Below are positions 38,692 to 62,429 of a stretch of DNA of 64,000 bases, piece after piece. Position 1 is the stretch's first letter. Each line of letters opens with the position of its first letter. Origin of the DNA: Escherichia coli (GTDB lineage Bacteria; Pseudomonadota; Gammaproteobacteria; Enterobacterales; Enterobacteriaceae); NCBI RefSeq assembly GCF_009931435.1, contig NZ_CP043414.1; one strand, written 5' to 3'. The notes under the pieces are model-generated. The model was not told where the DNA came from. It saw only the letters and a list, made by a program, of their open reading frames with translations, and ran no database searches. A program made the translations under genes and the position numbers.

Positions 38692-39723
38692 ATGATCGCT
38701 GAACTGTTTACAAATAATGCGCTTAATCTGGTCATTATTTTCGGTAGCTGCGCAGCATTGATTCTGATGAGCTTTTGGTTTCGCCGCGGAAATCGTAAAA
38801 GAAAAGGATTTTTATTCCATGCGGTGCAATTTTTAATCTACACCATAATTATCAGTGCTGTTGGTAGCATCATTAATTATGTTATAGAAAACTATAAACT
38901 CAAATTTATCACCCCAGGCGTTATCGATTTTATCTGTACGTCCCTGATTGCGGTTATTCTGACGATTAAACTATTTCTGCTGATAAATCAGTTTGAAAAA
39001 CAGCAGATTAAAAAAGGTCGCGATATCACCAGTGCGCGGATTATGTCGCGTATTATCAAAATCACCATTATTGTGGTACTTGTTTTGCTTTATGGCGAAC
39101 ATTTCGGTATGAGCCTTTCTGGCTTGCTGACCTTTGGTGGTATTGGTGGTCTGGCTGTCGGTATGGCCGGTAAAGATATTTTGAGTAACTTCTTTTCCGG
39201 GATTATGCTCTATTTCGACCGTCCTTTTAGTATTGGCGACTGGATCCGTTCACCGGACAGAAATATCGAAGGTACAGTAGCGGAAATTGGCTGGCGAATT
39301 ACCAAAATTACGACCTTTGATAATCGTCCGTTATACGTCCCGAACTCGCTGTTTTCGTCTATCAGCGTAGAAAACCCAGGACGAATGACCAACCGACGTA
39401 TTACCACGACAATCGGTTTACGTTATGAGGATGCGGCAAAAGTGGGAGCCATTGTCGAAGCCGTACGTGAGATGCTTAAAAATCACCCAGCCATCGACCA
39501 GCGACAAACCTTACTGGTTTATTTCAACCAGTTTGCTGACTCGTCATTGAATATTATGGTTTATTGCTTTACCAAAACCACAGTATGGGCTGAATGGCTT
39601 GCCGCCCAGCAGGATGTTTATTTGAAGATTATCGATATTGTACAGTCACACGGCGCGGATTTCGCGTTCCCAAGCCAGACGCTGTATATGGATAACATTA
39701 CACCACCAGACCAGGGTCGTTAA
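38692..39723 (+). CDS. ynaI: MscS-family mechanosensitive channel YnaI
   Basis: 343-aa ORF. N-terminal TM helices, then the conserved MscS beta-domain ([11 protein letters not shown]...[26 protein letters not shown]). Confidence 0.94.
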
Positions 39724-42293: not shown

Positions 42294-43233
42294 ATTGAAG
42301 CGCCGGTTCCACATCTACCGCCAGCCAGGTCGGTCCGTCAAGATCAGCAAAACTGACCTGCGGCACCAGCGGTAAAGCGGCGCTAATGGCACGAGAGGTA
42401 CACAACATGCAGCCCAGCATCAGACTGAAACCTTGTGCACGCGCTTCGGTCGCCAGCGCCAGCGCCTCCGTCAGGCCACCCGTTTTATCGAGCTTGATGT
42501 TAACCATCTCATAGCGCCCTTGCAGCGCCTTCAGATTGCTACGGGTATGACAACTTTCATCAGCACAAATCGGTAACGGATGAATAAAATTCTCCAGTGC
42601 CGCATCGTCCTGCGCAGGAAGCGGTTGTTCAAGCATCGCAACGCCTAAATCCGCGAGCAGTTGGCAACGCGCCGCCAACCCTTCTGCACGCCAGGATTCA
42701 TTTGCATCAACGATAAGCGTCGCGTCGGGCACAGCCGTGCGAATTGCTACCATCCGCTCACTGATAAGATGGTTATCCAGCTTCACTTTCAGCAATTTCG
42801 CGCCTGCCTGCCACAGTGTTGATGCACTATTGGCCATCTGATCAGGCGTACCGATGACTACCGTCTGGGCAGTGGTGACTGTCTCGGGAAGCGTTATGCC
42901 GATCAAATCAGCCAGCGATTGCTGCTGTTTTCGCGCCGCCAGATCCCACAATGCACAATCCAGCGCATTACGTGCTGCGCCGGCAGGGAGAATTTTTTGC
43001 AACTCCTCCCGTGTCAGCCCTTTCTCTAATTGCGGCACGACGCTCATAATTTGCGCCATTACCGAGGCATCACTTTCTCCATAACGCGGATACGGCGTGC
43101 ATTCACCGGTGCCTTTAATACCTTCTTCTTCCAGTTCAACCACCACCACGCGCGCTTCACTACGACTTCCCCGAGCAATCACAAACGGGGTATGTAAGGG
43201 CCAGGCTTCCTCAAATACCTTAACGGTTCTCAT
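42268..43233 (-). CDS. ycjG: L-Ala-D/L-Glu epimerase (enolase superfamily)
   Basis: 321 aa from MRTVKVFEEAWPLHTPFVIARG. Enolase-superfamily KxK and metal-binding Asp/Glu residues. 3' end overlaps mpaA by 26 nt (convergent). Confidence 0.92.
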   Translation of the reverse strand: MRTVKVFEEAWPLHTPFVIARGSRSEARVVVVELEEEGIKGTGECTPYPRYGESDASVMAQIMSVVPQLEKGLTREELQKILPAGAARNALDCALWDLAARKQQQSLADLIGITLPETVTTAQTVVIGTPDQMANSASTLWQAGAKLLKVKLDNHLISERMVAIRTAVPDATLIVDANESWRAEGLAARCQLLADLGVAMLEQPLPAQDDAALENFIHPLPICADESCHTRSNLKALQGRYEMVNIKLDKTGGLTEALALATEARAQGFSLMLGCMLCTSRAISAALPLVPQVSFADLDGPTWLAVDVEPALQFTTGALHL

Positions 43234-43351
43234 CTTTACTCCTTGTTGTCGCGGTGGTCTGCGGATTAAGCGCAAATAGCGTTTGCTGTGTTATTGACAG
43301 TTAGCATAAACTAGGTGTGACGTTAACTATATGTAAACAGGAAAGATAATC

Positions 43352-43855
43352 ATGTCACAAACCGTTCATTTCCAGGGCAACCCGGTTACAGTCGCCAATT
43401 CCATCCCGCAGGCGGGTAGCAAAGCGCAGACTTTTACTCTCGTGGCAAAAGATCTGTCTGACGTCACCCTCGGTCAGTTTGCGGGTAAACGCAAAGTGCT
43501 GAACATTTTCCCGAGTATTGATACCGGTGTTTGCGCCGCATCAGTACGTAAGTTTAACCAACTGGCAACCGAGATCGACAACACCGTTGTGCTGTGTATC
43601 TCTGCCGATCTTCCGTTCGCCCAGTCTCGTTTCTGCGGCGCAGAAGGTCTGAACAACGTTATCACCCTCTCCACTTTCCGTAACGCTGAATTCCTGCAAG
43701 CCTACGGTGTGGCAATTGCTGATGGCCCACTGAAAGGTCTGGCAGCGCGTGCCGTTGTGGTTATTGATGAAAATGACAATGTGATTTTCAGCCAGCTGGT
43801 GGATGAAATCACCACCGAGCCGGATTACGAAGCAGCTCTGGCTGTACTGCGCTAA
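43352..43855 (+). CDS. tpx: Thiol peroxidase Tpx (atypical 2-Cys peroxiredoxin)
   Basis: 167-aa ORF. Peroxidatic Cys in [10 protein letters not shown], resolving Cys in LCISADLPF. Confidence 0.97.
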
Positions 43856-43863
43856 ACAACTGT

Positions 43864-43901
43864 GCCGTTCACTGAATCACCACCGGTGAACGGCAGTTTT
43901 T
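43864..43901 (+). terminator. Rho-independent terminator after tpx
   Basis: Stem gccgttcac / gtgaacggc followed by agttttt. Confidence 0.8.
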
Positions 43902-44008
43902 GATCTACCAGTCCCACTATTTTCCAGAGTTCCTGCCACTATTCCCCCTAACCGTTGTGCATTAAGATTGCTCTTTGCCATTATTAGCCCAGCGGAGTGA
44001 TGACTATT

Positions 44009-46051
44009 ATGGATGATAAACAAATTACGGTCTGGCTTAAACACAATTGCTGTTCAACGGACATTCCTGCCATTGCCGAGGCACTAACGAACCATGCAGA
44101 ATGGCTTTTAGAGCTAGCGCCAGATCCTATTGATCAAGGTAGTTCATGCTTACCGCCGGCAGCTGCAGCTGGTATTTTTCTTGGCGCAGCGGCGATGGTT
44201 CACTGCGGCGAGGCCAGTGGTGCAGAAACCTGGCTCGAAGCAGCCATTACTGATTACCATTTCTTTAATCCAAACGGATATAGTTCATGGAGAGGCAGTA
44301 CGCCTGTTTTTACAGCAATATCGCGTTACCCGGCATTAAAAATGGTGTTATTTAACGCCGCTTGCGCAATGGAAGACTGGAATAAAGCATCCGCTGTTCT
44401 TGAATCGCTTTTCAATGCCAGCGATGTCCCGAAAGATAACCCTGTCGCCCCCAATTTTACCCCTTATGCGCTGAAAGATATTATCGCGGATAACCTCCCG
44501 TTAGGGCCTGCTTATTATGATGAAACCTGGTTGCTGGCAAAACAAGCGTGGTTAATTAATGCGGGCGTTCTGGATGAGCGAACATGCAATACCTGGAAGC
44601 AATATACCCGCCATTTGCGCCATTTGATCCACAATGCACAGTTTTCCGATGCGATCTCTTTTGTACGCAGTAAAAAAGAACCATTAAATCATATCCATAC
44701 CTACTCAGACTTTTATCTCTATGCGATTGGTTTATTTTCTTCTACTGATCAGCTAAGTGAAGCGCTAACCTGGGTAAAACAATTAATCCGCAACAATGAT
44801 GGTCATTTCCATGATCTTTTCGTTTCAACTGGCGCAAAGCGCCGCATAAAGCCTGAACTTAGTACCTTGCTGAATAATCTCTTGCACAGCGCAGAGTTTC
44901 AGGCGTTGCAGGATAAATATCTCACCGTCGGACATGATGTTGTGCATTCTGGTCCCTTCATGTCACTTTATGAAAAGGTTCTTGGCGGTAAGTCCCGAAA
45001 GCGCTGCGCGATTAGTCGAAAATTAATCTCGCCCGGCGAAGCGGTTTATGAATATCGTCAGCTGGATAGTGTGGAATATATTGCAGCGAAAGCGGCCTTT
45101 CAGACATCTGAGCTAAATAATATCGCCCACCGGCATCATAATGATAGTTATCAGTGGCATGAATTTGCCGCCCAATGGCCTCGTCGGGGTTCACTTTCTC
45201 ACCCAGATATTGCCCGTTATTTGTTTGAGCGCCAGGAAGGAAAATGCTTTGATGCCGCAGAGTTTATACCACTGATTGCGGAACCGTTTGTCTTTCCGAT
45301 GCGTTTCATATGGGTTGCCGGGTTGTCCTTTGAATTACATCAGTATCCGGATGCCTATTTCGTAAATGACAATATGGCGGGTGAATTTGTTAATCTCTGC
45401 TGGATGGCTATGAAATGCGGACATGCTGGCGACATTTTCAAACAACTGGCCCACGAGCCGCATGACGTTGCTGACCCTATTTACGCCATGCTCGCCACGT
45501 TTGACCGCTCTGATTGCCGTAGCGCCGCCGCCGCGCACTTTGGACAACCGGAACTACCGGAAATAATGGCACTGGCTTTCAGTTCGAGGTTATCGCTCGA
45601 CAGCGTACTTACCATCGCTGAGTTTGGTAAAAATCAGCCGCGATTTTCACATGCGCTAGCAACGGCCCTCCTGCGTTACAACCTGCACATCTACTCAAAC
45701 TATATGCCGCAGGTTAACTGGTACCTTCAGGGGCTGGAACACTATGCTTTGGCAAAAGGCGGTCAACTTTTAAATTTCTTTGTGCATATTCCAGAACAAA
45801 TTCCCGTTCTGGCGACCATGCTGGAACATGGCGTATTAGTGCGTGGGATCGGTGAAGGTGCCTATGATGGTTATGATAATTCAGCAAATTCATTTCATCA
45901 TGCCGCCGTGATGCACTGCCTTGAGCACGCGCCGGAAAAAGTCCGCTACTGGATGGAAACACCCTGGATTCAGAACTATTTAGTGAATGCGCCGCTGCGT
46001 CAAACGGCGCGCCATGTGGAAGCCTGGCATAAAAAGTTTGGCATCAAATGA
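44009..46051 (+). CDS. Hypothetical protein of about 680 aa, no recognisable domain; accessory gene in the tpx-tyrR spacer
   Basis: Uninterrupted 2-kb ORF. SD ggag at 43994-43997, 11 nt before ATG 44009 (MDDKQITVWLKHNCC...); in-frame GTG 43997 and ATG 44000 are alternative starts. No signal peptide, no obvious TM segments, no Walker/HTH/nuclease motif that I can identify. Rare codons AGA and CTA occur in frame. Confidence 0.75.
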   Translation: MDDKQITVWLKHNCCSTDIPAIAEALTNHAEWLLELAPDPIDQGSSCLPPAAAAGIFLGAAAMVHCGEASGAETWLEAAITDYHFFNPNGYSSWRGSTPVFTAISRYPALKMVLFNAACAMEDWNKASAVLESLFNASDVPKDNPVAPNFTPYALKDIIADNLPLGPAYYDETWLLAKQAWLINAGVLDERTCNTWKQYTRHLRHLIHNAQFSDAISFVRSKKEPLNHIHTYSDFYLYAIGLFSSTDQLSEALTWVKQLIRNNDGHFHDLFVSTGAKRRIKPELSTLLNNLLHSAEFQALQDKYLTVGHDVVHSGPFMSLYEKVLGGKSRKRCAISRKLISPGEAVYEYRQLDSVEYIAAKAAFQTSELNNIAHRHHNDSYQWHEFAAQWPRRGSLSHPDIARYLFERQEGKCFDAAEFIPLIAEPFVFPMRFIWVAGLSFELHQYPDAYFVNDNMAGEFVNLCWMAMKCGHAGDIFKQLAHEPHDVADPIYAMLATFDRSDCRSAAAAHFGQPELPEIMALAFSSRLSLDSVLTIAEFGKNQPRFSHALATALLRYNLHIYSNYMPQVNWYLQGLEHYALAKGGQLLNFFVHIPEQIPVLATMLEHGVLVRGIGEGAYDGYDNSANSFHHAAVMHCLEHAPEKVRYWMETPWIQNYLVNAPLRQTARHVEAWHKKFGIK

Positions 46052-46060
46052 ACGTTGCCG

Positions 46061-46079
46061 CTGCGCCTGAACGGCGCAG
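46061..46079. terminator. GC-rich hairpin between convergent stops of the hypothetical ORF and tyrR
   Basis: ctgcgcc-tgaac-ggcgcag (7-bp GC stem). No adjacent T-run, so function as a terminator is uncertain. Confidence 0.35.
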
Positions 46080-46088
46080 CCAGCACAA

Positions 46089-47630
46089 TCACTCTTCGCT
46101 TTTCTTCTGGTTTAAGCCATATTCCCGCAACTTATTGGCAATCGCGGTATGCGAAACGCCGAGACGTTTTGCCAGTTTGCGCGTGCTGGGATAATTGCGA
46201 TAAAGCTGAGTTAATACCGAGCGTTCAAAACGGCTGGTAATTTCGTCCAGCGAACCTTCCATCGCATCTTCGCCCACGGCTACCGTTGCGGCGTCATAAT
46301 CCGGCAACAAAATATCCTGAGGACGCAGCTCATAGCCGTCCAGTTGTGTCAGTGCGCGATAGATAGCGTTCTTTAACTGCCGCACATTTCCCGGCCACGC
46401 ATAACGCGTAAGTACAGTATTCAGGTCAGCGGCCAGTTTCGGACGCGGCACGCCCTGCTCGTCGGCAAAGCGAGCGACGAACAGCTCAGTTAACGGCATG
46501 ATGTCCTGCGGACAGTCACGTAACGGCGGTAGATTGAGCGTCAACACGTTCAGACGATAATAGAGATCTTCACGGAAAACGCCTTTTTGCACCAGTTCGA
46601 CTAAATTCTTCTGCGTAGCGCAAATCACCCTTACATCGACATGCACTTCATGATCTTCACCAACTCGACGGAAAGTGCCATCATTAAGGAAACGCAGTAA
46701 TTTCGCCTGCATCCTTGGCGACATCTCGCCTATCTCATCTAACAGCACCGAACCACCGTTCGCCTGCTCAAAGAACCCTTTTTTACCTTCCGGAGCATGA
46801 CCAAACAGTTCACTCTCGACCGCATCTTCCGGTATAGACGCGCAGTTCAGCGCCAGGTAAGGTTTGCCCGCTCGTGGGCTTGCCTGATGGCAGGCGTAGG
46901 CAAAGAGATCTTTACCTGTACCGGTGTCACCCGTAATCAGCAACGGCGCGCTTAGCATCGCCAGTTTCTGCGCCTGTTCGACAACATGCTTCATTTTCGG
47001 GCTGACGGCGACAATTTGACTGAAGGCACTGACGTCCTGTGCAGCGACATTCTGCAACTGACGGCCCATACGAATCGTCGAGCGCAACATCACCACCGCA
47101 CCGGTCAGAACGTGTTGATCATTTTCATCCTGAAGATAAACAGGCGTAATCTCCATCAGGAAATTCTGCCCATTAATAACGACATGCTCGTTATGCGAGT
47201 CTTGCGGTTCGCTTTCCAGCCAGCGTAAAAAATTAAAGCCGTTAATTAATTGCGCGGCGGTATGGTTGCGCAGGCGATCCAATTTTTGCCCAAAAAGCTG
47301 ACAGCTCGCCGGGTTCGCCATATCCACTTTGCTTTTCATATCAACAGAAAGCACAGGCTCAGGCAACGCCTCCAGTAACGCGCTCAACGCCAGATGCTCA
47401 CGTTCGGAAGGCATCCACGGAACAGTGCGCACATCGGTAACACCTGCAATACGGCGTATTTCGGCCATCAGACTGCTGAAACTTTCAAATTCCAGTTCGG
47501 CAAAATTGAGGTAGATTCGCCCAATGGGGTCAATCTCAATACCGCGTAAATCAATGCCTCTCAGCACCAGTAGATCGAGTAATTCGCGGGTCAGACCAAG
47601 TCGGTCTTCACAAAAGACTTCCAGACGCAT
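46089..47630 (-). CDS. tyrR: Transcriptional regulator TyrR (ACT-PAS-sigma54-type AAA+ - HTH)
   Basis: 513 aa from MRLEVFCEDRLGLTRELLDLLVLRGIDLRGIEIDP. AAA+ Walker A (GDTGTGKD). C-terminal HTH. The track ORF is extended 9 codons upstream. Confidence 0.96.
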   Translation of the reverse strand: MRLEVFCEDRLGLTRELLDLLVLRGIDLRGIEIDPIGRIYLNFAELEFESFSSLMAEIRRIAGVTDVRTVPWMPSEREHLALSALLEALPEPVLSVDMKSKVDMANPASCQLFGQKLDRLRNHTAAQLINGFNFLRWLESEPQDSHNEHVVINGQNFLMEITPVYLQDENDQHVLTGAVVMLRSTIRMGRQLQNVAAQDVSAFSQIVAVSPKMKHVVEQAQKLAMLSAPLLITGDTGTGKDLFAYACHQASPRAGKPYLALNCASIPEDAVESELFGHAPEGKKGFFEQANGGSVLLDEIGEMSPRMQAKLLRFLNDGTFRRVGEDHEVHVDVRVICATQKNLVELVQKGVFREDLYYRLNVLTLNLPPLRDCPQDIMPLTELFVARFADEQGVPRPKLAADLNTVLTRYAWPGNVRQLKNAIYRALTQLDGYELRPQDILLPDYDAATVAVGEDAMEGSLDEITSRFERSVLTQLYRNYPSTRKLAKRLGVSHTAIANKLREYGLNQKKSEE

Positions 47631-47700
47631 GGGAACCTTCACCTGAAAAAAGAACAATTAATATGATGATATGACACTATTTGGATAGCAGGAAGGTTTC

Positions 47701-47718
47701 TGTCAACAATCATTGACA
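47701..47718. promoter_or_regulatory. TyrR-box-like palindrome in the tyrR promoter region
   Basis: TGTCAA-N6-TTGACA, one mismatch per half-site from the TGTAAA-N6-TTTACA consensus, about 70 bp upstream of the tyrR start. Confidence 0.35.
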
Positions 47719-47777
47719 CAAAGACGGAAAAACGGGCACTTCGGCGTAAAGATATCCGGTCAGCACCCGATATTGCA

Positions 47778-61136: not shown

Positions 61137-62429
61137 TTAGTGCTGTTCGACCAACTCATCCAGCTTTTTCTGGCTCGCTTGCAGCGTGGTAGAGAGATCG
61201 GCTTTACCCACGGTGACGTTATGCACCATTGAGCTCACCACGCCAGAACCCGTCACATCGCCCATGCGGGTAAAGTTTTTATCCCCTACTGCGCCAAAGA
61301 CCTGAATATTTGGCAGTTCGCTAATCAACTGATTCGGCAAGTCTCCCAGCGCCTTAATCACGTCGTTATCTTTCCAGGTGGCAGTCGTCACAACCGCTTT
61401 GTTCACCGGCAGCGCCGCGCCTGGTGACATCATCACCCAGTCGGCAATGTTGTCTGCCTGCTCCATAAAGGTGACAAATTTTTCCGCCGCTTCCGTCTCT
61501 TCGCTTTTTTGCCCGGCGGTAATGGTCAGCGAGGTCAACATGCCGTAGACCGCCGAGTTTTTCTCGGTTGGCACCACGAAACCGACATTCTTCGGGTCGC
61601 CTTCTTTAATCACAGCCGGAAGGATATAGGTGGAGTAAATCGCCATCGGCGCGGTGCCGTTCATAAAGGCGTCTTTCACTTCCATAATGTCGTTAGAACC
61701 CGGCATGGTGTTGGCAGCAAGGTCGCGGTAATAGGTCAGCGCCTGCATCATCTCCGGCGTATCAAGAGTGATTTTGCCTTCGGCGTTAAAAACGTTGGCC
61801 TGATTGGATAACGCAAACTGAGAGAACGATTGTTCCGTCAGTACGCTTTCTGCCGTCGGCAGTGCAATACCGTATTTTTTATTCGCCGGATCGTTCAGTT
61901 TCTGTGCGACATCCAGCAACTGTTGCCAGTTTTTCGGCTCATCCAGCCCGGCTTTTGCCAGCACATCTTTGCGATACCAGATACCGCCAATCCATGCGCT
62001 GACAGGAACACCGGTCCAGGCGCTACCATCTTCGGTGCGCACAATCCGCAGAACGCCGTCATAAAACGCGCCTTCACCGACATTACTGATGACCGTAGCA
62101 ACCGCTTTGCGATCGATAAGCTGTTCTTTGTCCATCACTTTGGCGTAGTCATGGCTGGTTTCGATCACTTCCGGCAGCGAGCCGCTACGGGAAAGGGTGA
62201 TGACTTTGGTGTTATAGGCATCTTCTTCCACCGGCACTTGTTTAACAGTGATGCCTGGGTTTTCTTTTTCAAAACGCGCAATTAACTGACTAATTACCGC
62301 CTGGCGTTCCTGTTCCACCGAAGAATGCATAAACTCGATGGAGACATTCGTTTTATTTTCTTCTTTACAGCCTGAAATCAGGGCGCAGGAAACCAGTGCT
62401 GATAACAGCACGATTTTTGATTTAATCAT
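61137..62429 (-). CDS. ycjN: ABC sugar transporter periplasmic substrate-binding protein
   Basis: 430-aa ORF, signal peptide/lipobox-like N-terminus (MIKSKIVLLSALVSCALISGC), family-1 solute-binding protein. Confidence 0.92.
   Translation of the reverse strand: MIKSKIVLLSALVSCALISGCKEENKTNVSIEFMHSSVEQERQAVISQLIARFEKENPGITVKQVPVEEDAYNTKVITLSRSGSLPEVIETSHDYAKVMDKEQLIDRKAVATVISNVGEGAFYDGVLRIVRTEDGSAWTGVPVSAWIGGIWYRKDVLAKAGLDEPKNWQQLLDVAQKLNDPANKKYGIALPTAESVLTEQSFSQFALSNQANVFNAEGKITLDTPEMMQALTYYRDLAANTMPGSNDIMEVKDAFMNGTAPMAIYSTYILPAVIKEGDPKNVGFVVPTEKNSAVYGMLTSLTITAGQKSEETEAAEKFVTFMEQADNIADWVMMSPGAALPVNKAVVTTATWKDNDVIKALGDLPNQLISELPNIQVFGAVGDKNFTRMGDVTGSGVVSSMVHNVTVGKADLSTTLQASQKKLDELVEQH

What the first reader, a model, noticed from the sequence alone, without database searches (positions are those of the whole stretch)
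47701..47718. Palindromic TyrR-box-like operator in the tyrR upstream region
TGTCAA-CAATCA-TTGACA is a perfect 6-N6-6 palindrome differing by one base per half-site from the TyrR box consensus. It lies in the 147-bp spacer between ycjF and tyrR and is a plausible autoregulatory site.
Basis: partly seen in the sequence, partly recalled or inferred. Interest (0 to 1): 0.2.

Follow-up and report, generated by a model that had tools for sequence, protein, structure and literature searches.

The report
Known TyrR operator upstream of tyrR
The palindrome is real and is the long-known binding site through which the E. coli regulator TyrR dampens transcription of its own gene, so it is a correct call but textbook rather than new.

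Summary
The 18-mer at 47701-47718 is exactly as described. On the tyrR strand it reads TGTCAATGATTGTTGACA, in the 147-bp ycjF-tyrR spacer, 71-88 nt before the tyrR ATG. The spacer is base-for-base identical to E. coli K-12 MG1655. The site meets the published definition of a strong TyrR box (10/12 to TGTAAA-N6-TTTACA, plus the essential G2 and C17).

Sequence alone is near chance: 2 such sites occur in the window against about 2 expected. Context and conservation decide it. In 80 tyrR loci from at least 20 Enterobacteriaceae genera the box is always present at -84 to -99 from the ATG. Eleven of 12 arm positions are invariant, and the arms are the best-conserved 6-N6-6 in the spacer.

A published TSS (29 nt before the ATG) and an invariant TATCAT -10 place the box at -59..-42, just upstream of the -35. 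That matches the literature statement that TyrR represses tyrR by binding upstream of the -35.

One side observation: a conserved weak-box-like TTTAC element lies exactly 44 bp upstream in 51 of 80 loci, inside a terminator-like hairpin loop, and it stays with tyrR when ycjF lies further away. It may be a second, distal TyrR site.

The parts
47701..47718 (.). Strong TyrR box, the tyrR operator. On the tyrR strand it reads TGTCAATGATTGTTGACA, at -88..-71 from the ATG and -59..-42 from the TSS (centre -50.5).
   Evidence: sequence. (strong-box definition: at least 10/12 plus G2/C17). (present in 80/80 orthologous loci; 11 of 12 arm positions invariant in 81 sequences). (identical to K-12).
47689..47694 (-). 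Inferred -35 hexamer TTCCTG of the tyrR promoter, 17 bp upstream of the -10. It overlaps the conserved block CTTCC at 47691-47695 (CTT is 81/81 invariant; the two C are 80/81 and 69/81).
   Evidence: conservation. (TSS). The hexamer assignment is my inference from spacing; it matches TTGACA at only 2 of 6 positions.
47666..47671 (-). -10 hexamer TATCAT. It reads TAT[C/T]AT across the alignment, with five of six positions invariant in 81 sequences.
   Evidence: It lies at -12..-7 relative to the TSS.
47659..47659 (-). tyrR transcription start site (A), 29 nt upstream of the ATG.
   Evidence: Kim et al. 2012 (PMC3415461) supplementary file 2 lists a tyrR TSS at 1384715 in the older MG1655 coordinates. 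The 5'UTR is 29 nt, and the upstream 51-mer listed there matches the window.
47636..47643 (-). Shine-Dalgarno region GGTGAAGG. The GGTGA core is conserved in 68-78 of 81 sequences.
46089..47630 (-). tyrR coding sequence (513 aa plus stop codon).
   Evidence: ACT, PAS, sigma54-interaction AAA+ and HTH_50 domains. (annotated as tyrR in E. coli genomes).
47745..47762 (-). Candidate distal weak TyrR box TGACCGGATATCTTTACG (7/12, with G2 and C17). Its start is 44 bp upstream of the strong-box start. Function is unverified.
   Evidence: offset -44 is the only outstanding offset in an unbiased scan. (TTTAC at this offset in 51 of 80 loci). (the element persists when ycjF is 190-1140 nt away or not found within 1.5 kb).
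47728..47769 (-). Terminator-like hairpin after ycjF: stems CGGGTGCT (47762-47769) and AGTGCCCG (47733-47740), then TTTTT (47728-47732). Its loop holds the TTTAC element.
   Evidence: fold. (covariation: 69.9% of cells paired against 35-45% in slid controls; 50 compensatory cells against 20-28). Against it: RNAalifold predicts no consensus structure; the simple terminator scan finds nothing.

Best explanation
The 18-mer is the strong TyrR box that serves as the operator for negative autoregulation of tyrR. A TyrR dimer binds the two arms through its C-terminal helix-turn-helix domains, and established TyrR literature says strong boxes are bound without aromatic amino-acid cofactors. The box spans -59..-42 relative to the tyrR start site, directly next to a weak -35 hexamer (TTCCTG). 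Bound TyrR therefore most likely hinders RNA polymerase recruitment, either by blocking alpha-CTD/UP-region contacts or by crowding sigma region 4 at the -35. The result is lower tyrR transcription and a low, stable TyrR level.

Shown here: the sequence, its identity with K-12, its position relative to the mapped start site, and its conservation. Taken from the literature: TyrR represses tyrR by binding upstream of the -35. Inferred: the steric mechanism, and from my own recollection of Camakaris & Pittard 1982 and Pittard 2005 (neither was readable here), that repression is modest and cofactor-independent.
For: 1. The site is exactly as described and is 10/12 to the consensus, with G2 and C17 spaced 14 bp apart. 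That is the published definition of a functional strong box.

2. The whole 147-bp spacer is identical to K-12 MG1655. The 71-nt box-to-TSS core is 100% identical in 4,685 of 5,415 E. coli genomes.

3. [quoted passage not shown] 1986. PMC5343134 lists tyrR itself among the most conserved TyrR-regulon members.

4. The experimental TSS is 29 nt before the ATG. It falls 7 nt after an invariant TATCAT, which puts the box at -59..-42, immediately upstream of the -35.

5. All 80 orthologous loci from at least 20 genera carry TGTCAA-N6-TT[G/A/C]ACA at -84..-99 from the ATG. Eleven of 12 arm positions are invariant in 81 sequences, while three of the six central positions vary. The arms are the most conserved 6-N6-6 in the spacer, at 2.29 bits against 1.11 +/- 0.60 for the rest.

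6. The other K-12 regulon promoters (aroF, aroL, aroP, aroG, tyrP, mtr) show boxes of 10-12/12 under the same search, so this site falls in their class.

7. PMC6524683 states that unliganded dimeric TyrR binds strong boxes only.
Against: No binding or expression experiment can be run here. The primary papers that mapped the operator (Cornish 1986, Pittard 2005) are not in the held library. That this exact 18-mer is the published box therefore rests on my recollection plus the indirect match above.

Sequence similarity alone is near chance level in 64 kb. The PWM score (11.1 bits) is below all eight training boxes (12.7-23.5), although those scores are inflated because the boxes were scored against a matrix they helped build.

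A repressor centred at -50.5, upstream of the -35, is not a classic occlusion geometry, so the steric step is inferred. The TSS has a recorded count of only 4 in one dataset, and no second dataset was accessible.

The non-consensus C4 is invariant, and position 15 is G in 77 of 81 and never the consensus T. This suggests a further constraint that TyrR binding alone does not explain.
Confidence: 0.93

Rival explanations
1. The right arm TTGACA is itself the -35 hexamer of a tyrR promoter. TyrR would then repress by directly occluding the -35, as at aroG and tyrP, rather than from upstream of it.
For: TTGACA is a perfect sigma70 -35 consensus. Position 15 is G in 77 of 81 sequences and never the TyrR-consensus T, and C4 is invariant. 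This is what one would expect if -35-like identity were under selection. Cornish 1986 may have described more than one start site; that is my uncertain recollection and I could not check it.
Against: The only start site within the spacer that I found is 42 nt downstream of the last base of TTGACA. The invariant -10 (TATCAT) is 29 bp from TTGACA, far outside the 16-18 bp spacing. The positions 17 bp downstream of TTGACA (CAAATA in E. coli) are not conserved. The promoter scan found no TTGACA-based promoter on the tyrR strand. The literature explicitly says TyrR binds 'upstream of the -35'.
Confidence: 0.08
2. The operator is bipartite. The strong box works together with the conserved weak-box-like element 44 bp upstream (47745-47762), with both bound by a TyrR oligomer through a DNA loop. 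On this reading the 18-mer alone is only half of the functional site. This extends the best explanation rather than excluding it.
For: An unbiased offset scan finds -44 as the only outstanding offset, with a mean of 5.7/12 and G2+C17 in 54% of sequences. TTTAC sits at exactly this offset in 51 of 80 loci. It stays with tyrR when ycjF ends 189-288 nt away, about 920-1140 nt away, or is not found within 1.5 kb. Offsets of 44 bp and the canonical 23 bp have the same helical phase (my arithmetic: 4.19 and 2.19 turns at 10.5 bp per turn). Other regulon members use three boxes spaced 23 and 52-53 bp apart.
Against: The element is only 7/12 in E. coli, and its left arm shares only TG with the consensus. 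Its PWM score is 2.1 bits, rank about 167 in the window. The spacing is not one of the canonical 23, 30 or 52-53 bp values. The element lies in the loop of a covarying hairpin followed by a T-run, which offers another reason for constraint. It is absent from 29 of 80 loci, including every locus where the ycjF-tyrR gap is 115-139 nt. It may also already be a curated weak box, which I could not check.
Confidence: 0.2
3. The palindrome is the site of a different regulator, or a chance palindrome with no function.
For: Perfect 6-N6-6 palindromes and 10/12 consensus matches each occur at chance frequency in the window.
Against: Eleven of 12 arm positions are invariant across at least 20 genera while the flanks diverge, which excludes chance. 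The arms match TyrR's requirements, including G2 and C17, upstream of a gene documented as TyrR-autoregulated. A CRP-type reading fails because the TGTCA/TGACA pentamers are 8 bp apart rather than 6 (read directly from the sequence). I found no other factor's motif.
Confidence: 0.02

Closest known systems
The tyrR operator (TyrR box) of E. coli K-12, from Camakaris & Pittard 1982, Cornish et al. 1986 and the reviews by Pittard & Davidson 1991 and Pittard et al. 2005
   Same: The regulatory region is identical base for base to K-12 MG1655. The location is the same, upstream of the tyrR -35. The gene and the regulator are the same. By my recollection the published box is this very 18-mer.
   Different: Nothing detectable. 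This is that site in another E. coli strain. The strain differs only downstream of tyrR, where a rare 684-aa ORF lies between tpx and tyrR.
Single strong TyrR box of aroG
   Same: A single strong box acts as a repressor site at a sigma70 promoter. It starts 88 nt before the ATG in both genes.
   Different: The aroG box is a perfect 12/12 match and overlaps the -35, and repression there needs phenylalanine or tryptophan. The tyrR box is 10/12 and lies upstream of the -35.
Composite strong-plus-weak TyrR operators of tyrP, aroP, aroF and aroL
   Same: They use the same 18-bp dyad motif and the same protein. The strong box nucleates binding.
   Different: Those operators have a weak box 23 bp away (start to start), and aroF and aroL have a third box at 52-53 bp. 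tyrR has no box at +/-23 bp in any of 81 sequences, only the candidate at 44 bp.

Membership tests
Strong TyrR box | 18-bp site with two 6-bp arms in dyad symmetry separated by 6 bp | tested here: met
   TGTCAA-CAATCA-TTGACA is a perfect inverted repeat.
Strong TyrR box | At least 10 of 12 arm positions match TGTAAA-N6-TTTACA (definition quoted in PMC4374768) | tested here: met
   10/12.
Strong TyrR box | Invariant G (position 2) and C (position 17), 14 bp apart, essential for TyrR binding | tested here: met
   G2 and C17 are present and are 81/81 invariant across orthologues.
Strong TyrR box | Lies in the promoter region of a gene shown to be TyrR-regulated | tested here: met
   The box spans -59..-42 relative to the mapped tyrR TSS. 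tyrR autoregulation is documented in papers cited by PMC4374768 and PMC5343134.
Strong TyrR box | Conserved upstream of orthologous genes | tested here: met
   Present in 80 of 80 loci from at least 20 genera. The arms are the most conserved 6-N6-6 in the spacer.
Strong TyrR box | Scores like other experimentally studied strong boxes | tested here: inconclusive
   By consensus count it equals the aroP box and the second aroF and aroL boxes at 10/12. With a leave-tyrR-out PWM it scores 11.1 bits, below the training range of 12.7-23.5 and rank 3 in the window.
Strong TyrR box | Bound by TyrR dimer in vitro without cofactors; mutation relieves repression in vivo | not testable with these tools
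   This needs EMSA, footprinting or reporter assays. The primary papers are not held.
Sigma70 -35 hexamer of the tyrR promoter (for the TTGACA arm) | 16-18 bp upstream of a -10 hexamer that precedes a mapped start site | tested here: not met
   TTGACA is 29 bp from the invariant TATCAT and its last base is 42 nt upstream of the TSS. No conserved -10 lies at 16-18 bp.
Weak TyrR box (for the element at 47745-47762) | Fewer than 10/12 matches but G2 and C17 kept, adjacent to a strong box on the same helical face | tested here: inconclusive
   It is 7/12 with G2 and C17 in E. coli, and G2+C17 are kept in 54% of sequences. The 44-bp spacing is not the canonical 23 bp, although the helical phase is the same. 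Binding is untested.

The most novel reading that the evidence does not exclude
tyrR autoregulation may use a previously unappreciated distal element. This is a TTTAC half-site or weak box fixed 44 bp upstream of the strong box, embedded in the loop of the upstream gene's terminator hairpin, and it stays with tyrR when the upstream gene lies further away. Together with the invariant non-consensus C4 and near-invariant G15, which make both arms perfect -35 look-alikes, this would imply a looped or RNAP-competing operator architecture unlike the other TyrR regulon members.
Probability: 0.1. Interest if true: 0.3.

Novelty: already known. Interest (0 to 1): 0.07.

Why it matters
It matters little beyond correct annotation. 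[quoted passage not shown] The check shows that a sequence-only reader can recover a real operator.

The comparative data add three small refinements:
- The operator, including its two non-consensus bases, is almost invariant across Enterobacteriaceae.
- The core promoter is TTCCTG-17 bp-TATCAT, with the box upstream of the -35.
- A conserved element 44 bp upstream may be a second TyrR contact.

These points could interest people engineering tyrR or aromatic amino-acid pathways. They do not open a new question.

Tried and rejected
Literature. Searching the library for the exact 18-mer on either strand found nothing, and TGTCAA together with TyrR gave only irrelevant hits. The primary and review papers (Camakaris 1982, Yang 2007, Pittard 2005, the EcoSal chapter, Thomason 2015) are not held. 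Supplements of RegPrecise- and RegulonDB-based papers do not list the site sequence. Their counts of TyrR sites per operon are too ambiguously labelled to tell whether tyrR has a second curated site. A search for statements on fold-repression or cofactor independence was unproductive. The Cappable-seq supplements held no TSS at the expected coordinates, and the stored files total only about 270,000 characters, so the TSS table may not be held in full.

Rejected readings:
- The TTGACA arm as the -35 of the mapped promoter fails on spacing.
- A CRP-like site fails because the pentamers are 8 bp apart rather than 6.
- An adjacent weak box at +/-23 bp is absent in all 81 sequences.
- A downstream weak box overlapping the -10 (TGTCATATCATCATATTA, offset +42) fails because C17 is absent in E. 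coli and present in only a third of sequences.

The ycjF hairpin is not picked up by the simple terminator scan, by RNAalifold or by single-sequence stability (z = -0.79). Only explicit pair counting supports it.

I did not use the large protein-database searches to extend the footprint beyond Enterobacteriaceae, because the verdict did not depend on it.

Full report
Observation. Window 47701-47718 reads TGTCAACAATCATTGACA. It is a perfect 6-N6-6 palindrome, and each arm is one base away from the TyrR consensus TGTAAA-N6-TTTACA. tyrR lies on the minus strand with its ATG at 47630 and its stop codon at 46089-46091. The longer TTG-initiated ORF is a mechanical artefact, because the protein begins MRLEVF. 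Pfam confirms TyrR (ACT, PAS, sigma54-interaction AAA+, HTH_50) and YcjF (DUF697). On the tyrR strand the box reads TGTCAATGATTGTTGACA, at -88..-71 from the ATG.

Is it more than chance? Not by sequence alone.
- The window contains 21 perfect 6-N6-6 palindromes against 18.7 +/- 4.5 in dinucleotide shuffles.
- It contains 2 sites that meet the strong-box definition against 1.9 expected.
- A site that is both palindromic and strong is expected 0.11 times per window.
- A PWM built from eight other K-12 strong boxes ranks the site 3rd of about 64,000 positions, at 11.1 bits and z = 4.1.
Position and conservation make it significant.

Identity with K-12. The window is E. coli. The spacer region is present in 5,415 of 5,426 complete genomes. 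Across the whole spacer and both flanks it matches K-12 MG1655 at every base. The 71-nt stretch from the box to the start site is 100% identical in 4,685 genomes and at least 95% identical in the remaining 730. Whatever has been mapped in K-12 therefore applies here unchanged.

What the literature says. PMC4374768 defines strong TyrR boxes as those with at least 10 of 12 matches to the consensus. It says the G and C of the two arms, 14 bp apart, are invariant and essential. [quoted passage not shown] 1986. PMC5343134 lists tyrR itself among the most conserved members of TyrR regulons in gamma-proteobacteria. PMC6524683 states that unliganded dimeric TyrR binds strong boxes only, and that the tyrosine/ATP hexamer binds strong plus weak boxes. 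The primary papers are not in the held library. That the published tyrR box is this exact 18-mer is my own recollection, not a tool result.

Promoter geometry. Kim et al. 2012 (PMC3415461, supplementary file 2) list a tyrR start site at 1384715 in the older MG1655 coordinates, 29 nt before the ATG, and the upstream 51-mer listed there matches the window. That is window 47659.
- Seven nucleotides upstream of the TSS lies TATCAT (47666-47671), the -10.
- Seventeen base pairs further upstream lies TTCCTG (47689-47694), a poor -35.
- The box therefore spans -59..-42, centred at -50.5, and ends six base pairs before the -35. This agrees with 'upstream of the -35'.
- The right arm TTGACA is a perfect -35 consensus but is 29 bp from the -10, so it is not the -35 of the mapped promoter.
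The same dataset lists a minor start 411 nt upstream, inside ycjF.

Phylogenetic footprint. One scan of species-representative genomes returned 80 tyrR loci with 84-99% protein identity. They come from Escherichia, Citrobacter, Salmonella, Enterobacter, Klebsiella, Raoultella, Kosakonia, Leclercia, Lelliottia, Buttiauxella and other genera.
- Every locus has TGTCAA-N6-TT[G/A/C]ACA at -84 to -99 from the ATG.
- In the 81-sequence alignment, 11 of 12 arm positions are invariant. Position 15 is G in 77 sequences, A in 2 and C in 2.
- Three of the six central positions vary.
- The arms are the most conserved 6-N6-6 in the spacer, at 2.29 of a possible 2.32 bits, against 1.11 +/- 0.60 for the rest.
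- Of the 22 positions that are invariant across the spacer, 13 lie in the box, 5 in the -10, 3 in the CTTCC block that overlaps the -35, and one is the T of a conserved TG at -46/-45 from the ATG.
Invariant arms with a partly free centre are what a dimer-binding operator should look like.

Comparison with the rest of the regulon. The same search on K-12 promoters recovers the expected boxes.
- aroG scores 12/12.
- aroL, tyrP, aroF and mtr each have a box at 11/12.
- aroP and the second aroF and aroL boxes score 10/12.
- Weaker partner boxes lie 23 bp away (start to start), 30 bp in mtr, and third boxes lie 52-53 bp away in aroF and aroL.
The tyrR site belongs to the strong class. Unlike the composite operators, tyrR has no box at +/-23 bp in any of the 81 sequences.

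Mechanism. The best-supported account is that a TyrR dimer occupies the box and lowers initiation at a promoter that already has a weak -35. It would do so by obstructing alpha-CTD or upstream contacts and crowding the -35, which produces negative feedback. Binding and repression are taken from the literature. The geometry is shown here. The steric step is inferred.

One feature is not explained by TyrR binding alone. The non-consensus C4 is invariant, and position 15 is G in 77 of 81 sequences and never the consensus T. These bases may tune affinity, or the -35 look-alike may matter for RNA polymerase. I could not test either idea.

A side finding. An unbiased scan of all offsets from the strong box shows one outstanding position, 44 bp upstream, with a mean of 5.7/12 and G2+C17 in 54% of sequences.
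- In E. coli this element is TGACCGGATATCTTTACG (47745-47762), which is 7/12.
- Its TTTAC is present at exactly this offset in 51 of 80 loci.
- It lies in the loop of a hairpin followed by a T-run after ycjF. The stem shows covariation, with 69.9% of cells paired against 35-45% in slid controls. RNAalifold and the single-sequence fold do not support the hairpin.
- The element persists where ycjF ends 189-288 nt away, about 920-1140 nt away, or is not found within 1.5 kb. It is missing from all 21 loci where the gap has shrunk to 115-139 nt, mainly Enterobacter, Lelliottia and Leclercia.
It therefore travels with tyrR and may be a distal weak TyrR site. It may already be curated, which I could not check.

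Verdict. The feature is the already-known tyrR operator, so interest is low.

Noticed in passing
window 47745-47762 (minus strand): A weak-box-like element, TGACCGGATATCTTTACG, has its TTTAC fixed exactly 44 bp upstream of the strong TyrR box in 51 of 80 Enterobacteriaceae loci. It stays with tyrR when ycjF lies further away or is not found within 1.5 kb. It is lost in all 21 loci with a 115-139 nt ycjF-tyrR gap, mainly Enterobacter, Lelliottia and Leclercia.
   Followed up: partly
window 47728-47769 (minus strand): A terminator-like hairpin (CGGGTGCT ... AGTGCCCG, then TTTTT) follows the ycjF stop codon and has an unusually large loop. Explicit pair counting supports it by covariation. The terminator scan, RNAalifold and single-sequence stability do not.
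   Followed up: yes
window 47691-47695 and 47673-47676 (minus strand): Two conserved motifs in the tyrR core promoter are not explained by sigma70 consensus. CTTCC overlaps the poor -35 (CTT invariant; the two C are 80/81 and 69/81). TG-N-C lies at -17/-16/-14 from the TSS, two bases too far upstream for an extended -10. They could be RNA polymerase contacts or the site of another factor.
   Followed up: no
window 43997-46051 (+): A 684-aa ORF with no Pfam match lies between tpx (43352-43855) and the 3' end of tyrR, where K-12 has tpx directly next to tyrR. Only 30 of 5,426 complete E. coli genomes cover at least 80% of window 43000-46100, and they annotate it as a hypothetical protein.
   Followed up: partly
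window about 48041 (minus strand, inside ycjF): Kim et al. 2012 list a second, minor tyrR-assigned start site 411 nt upstream of the ATG, with a count of 2. It may reflect read-through or an internal promoter within ycjF.
   Followed up: no
window 14492-14509, 38825-38842 and 62352-62369: Other TyrR-consensus or PWM matches in the window are TGTAAAACTCCCTTTTCC (10/12, not palindromic), TGCAATTTTTAATCTACA (13.8 bits) and TTTATTTTCTTCTTTACA (12.5 bits). Their number is what chance predicts. I did not examine their gene context.
   Followed up: no
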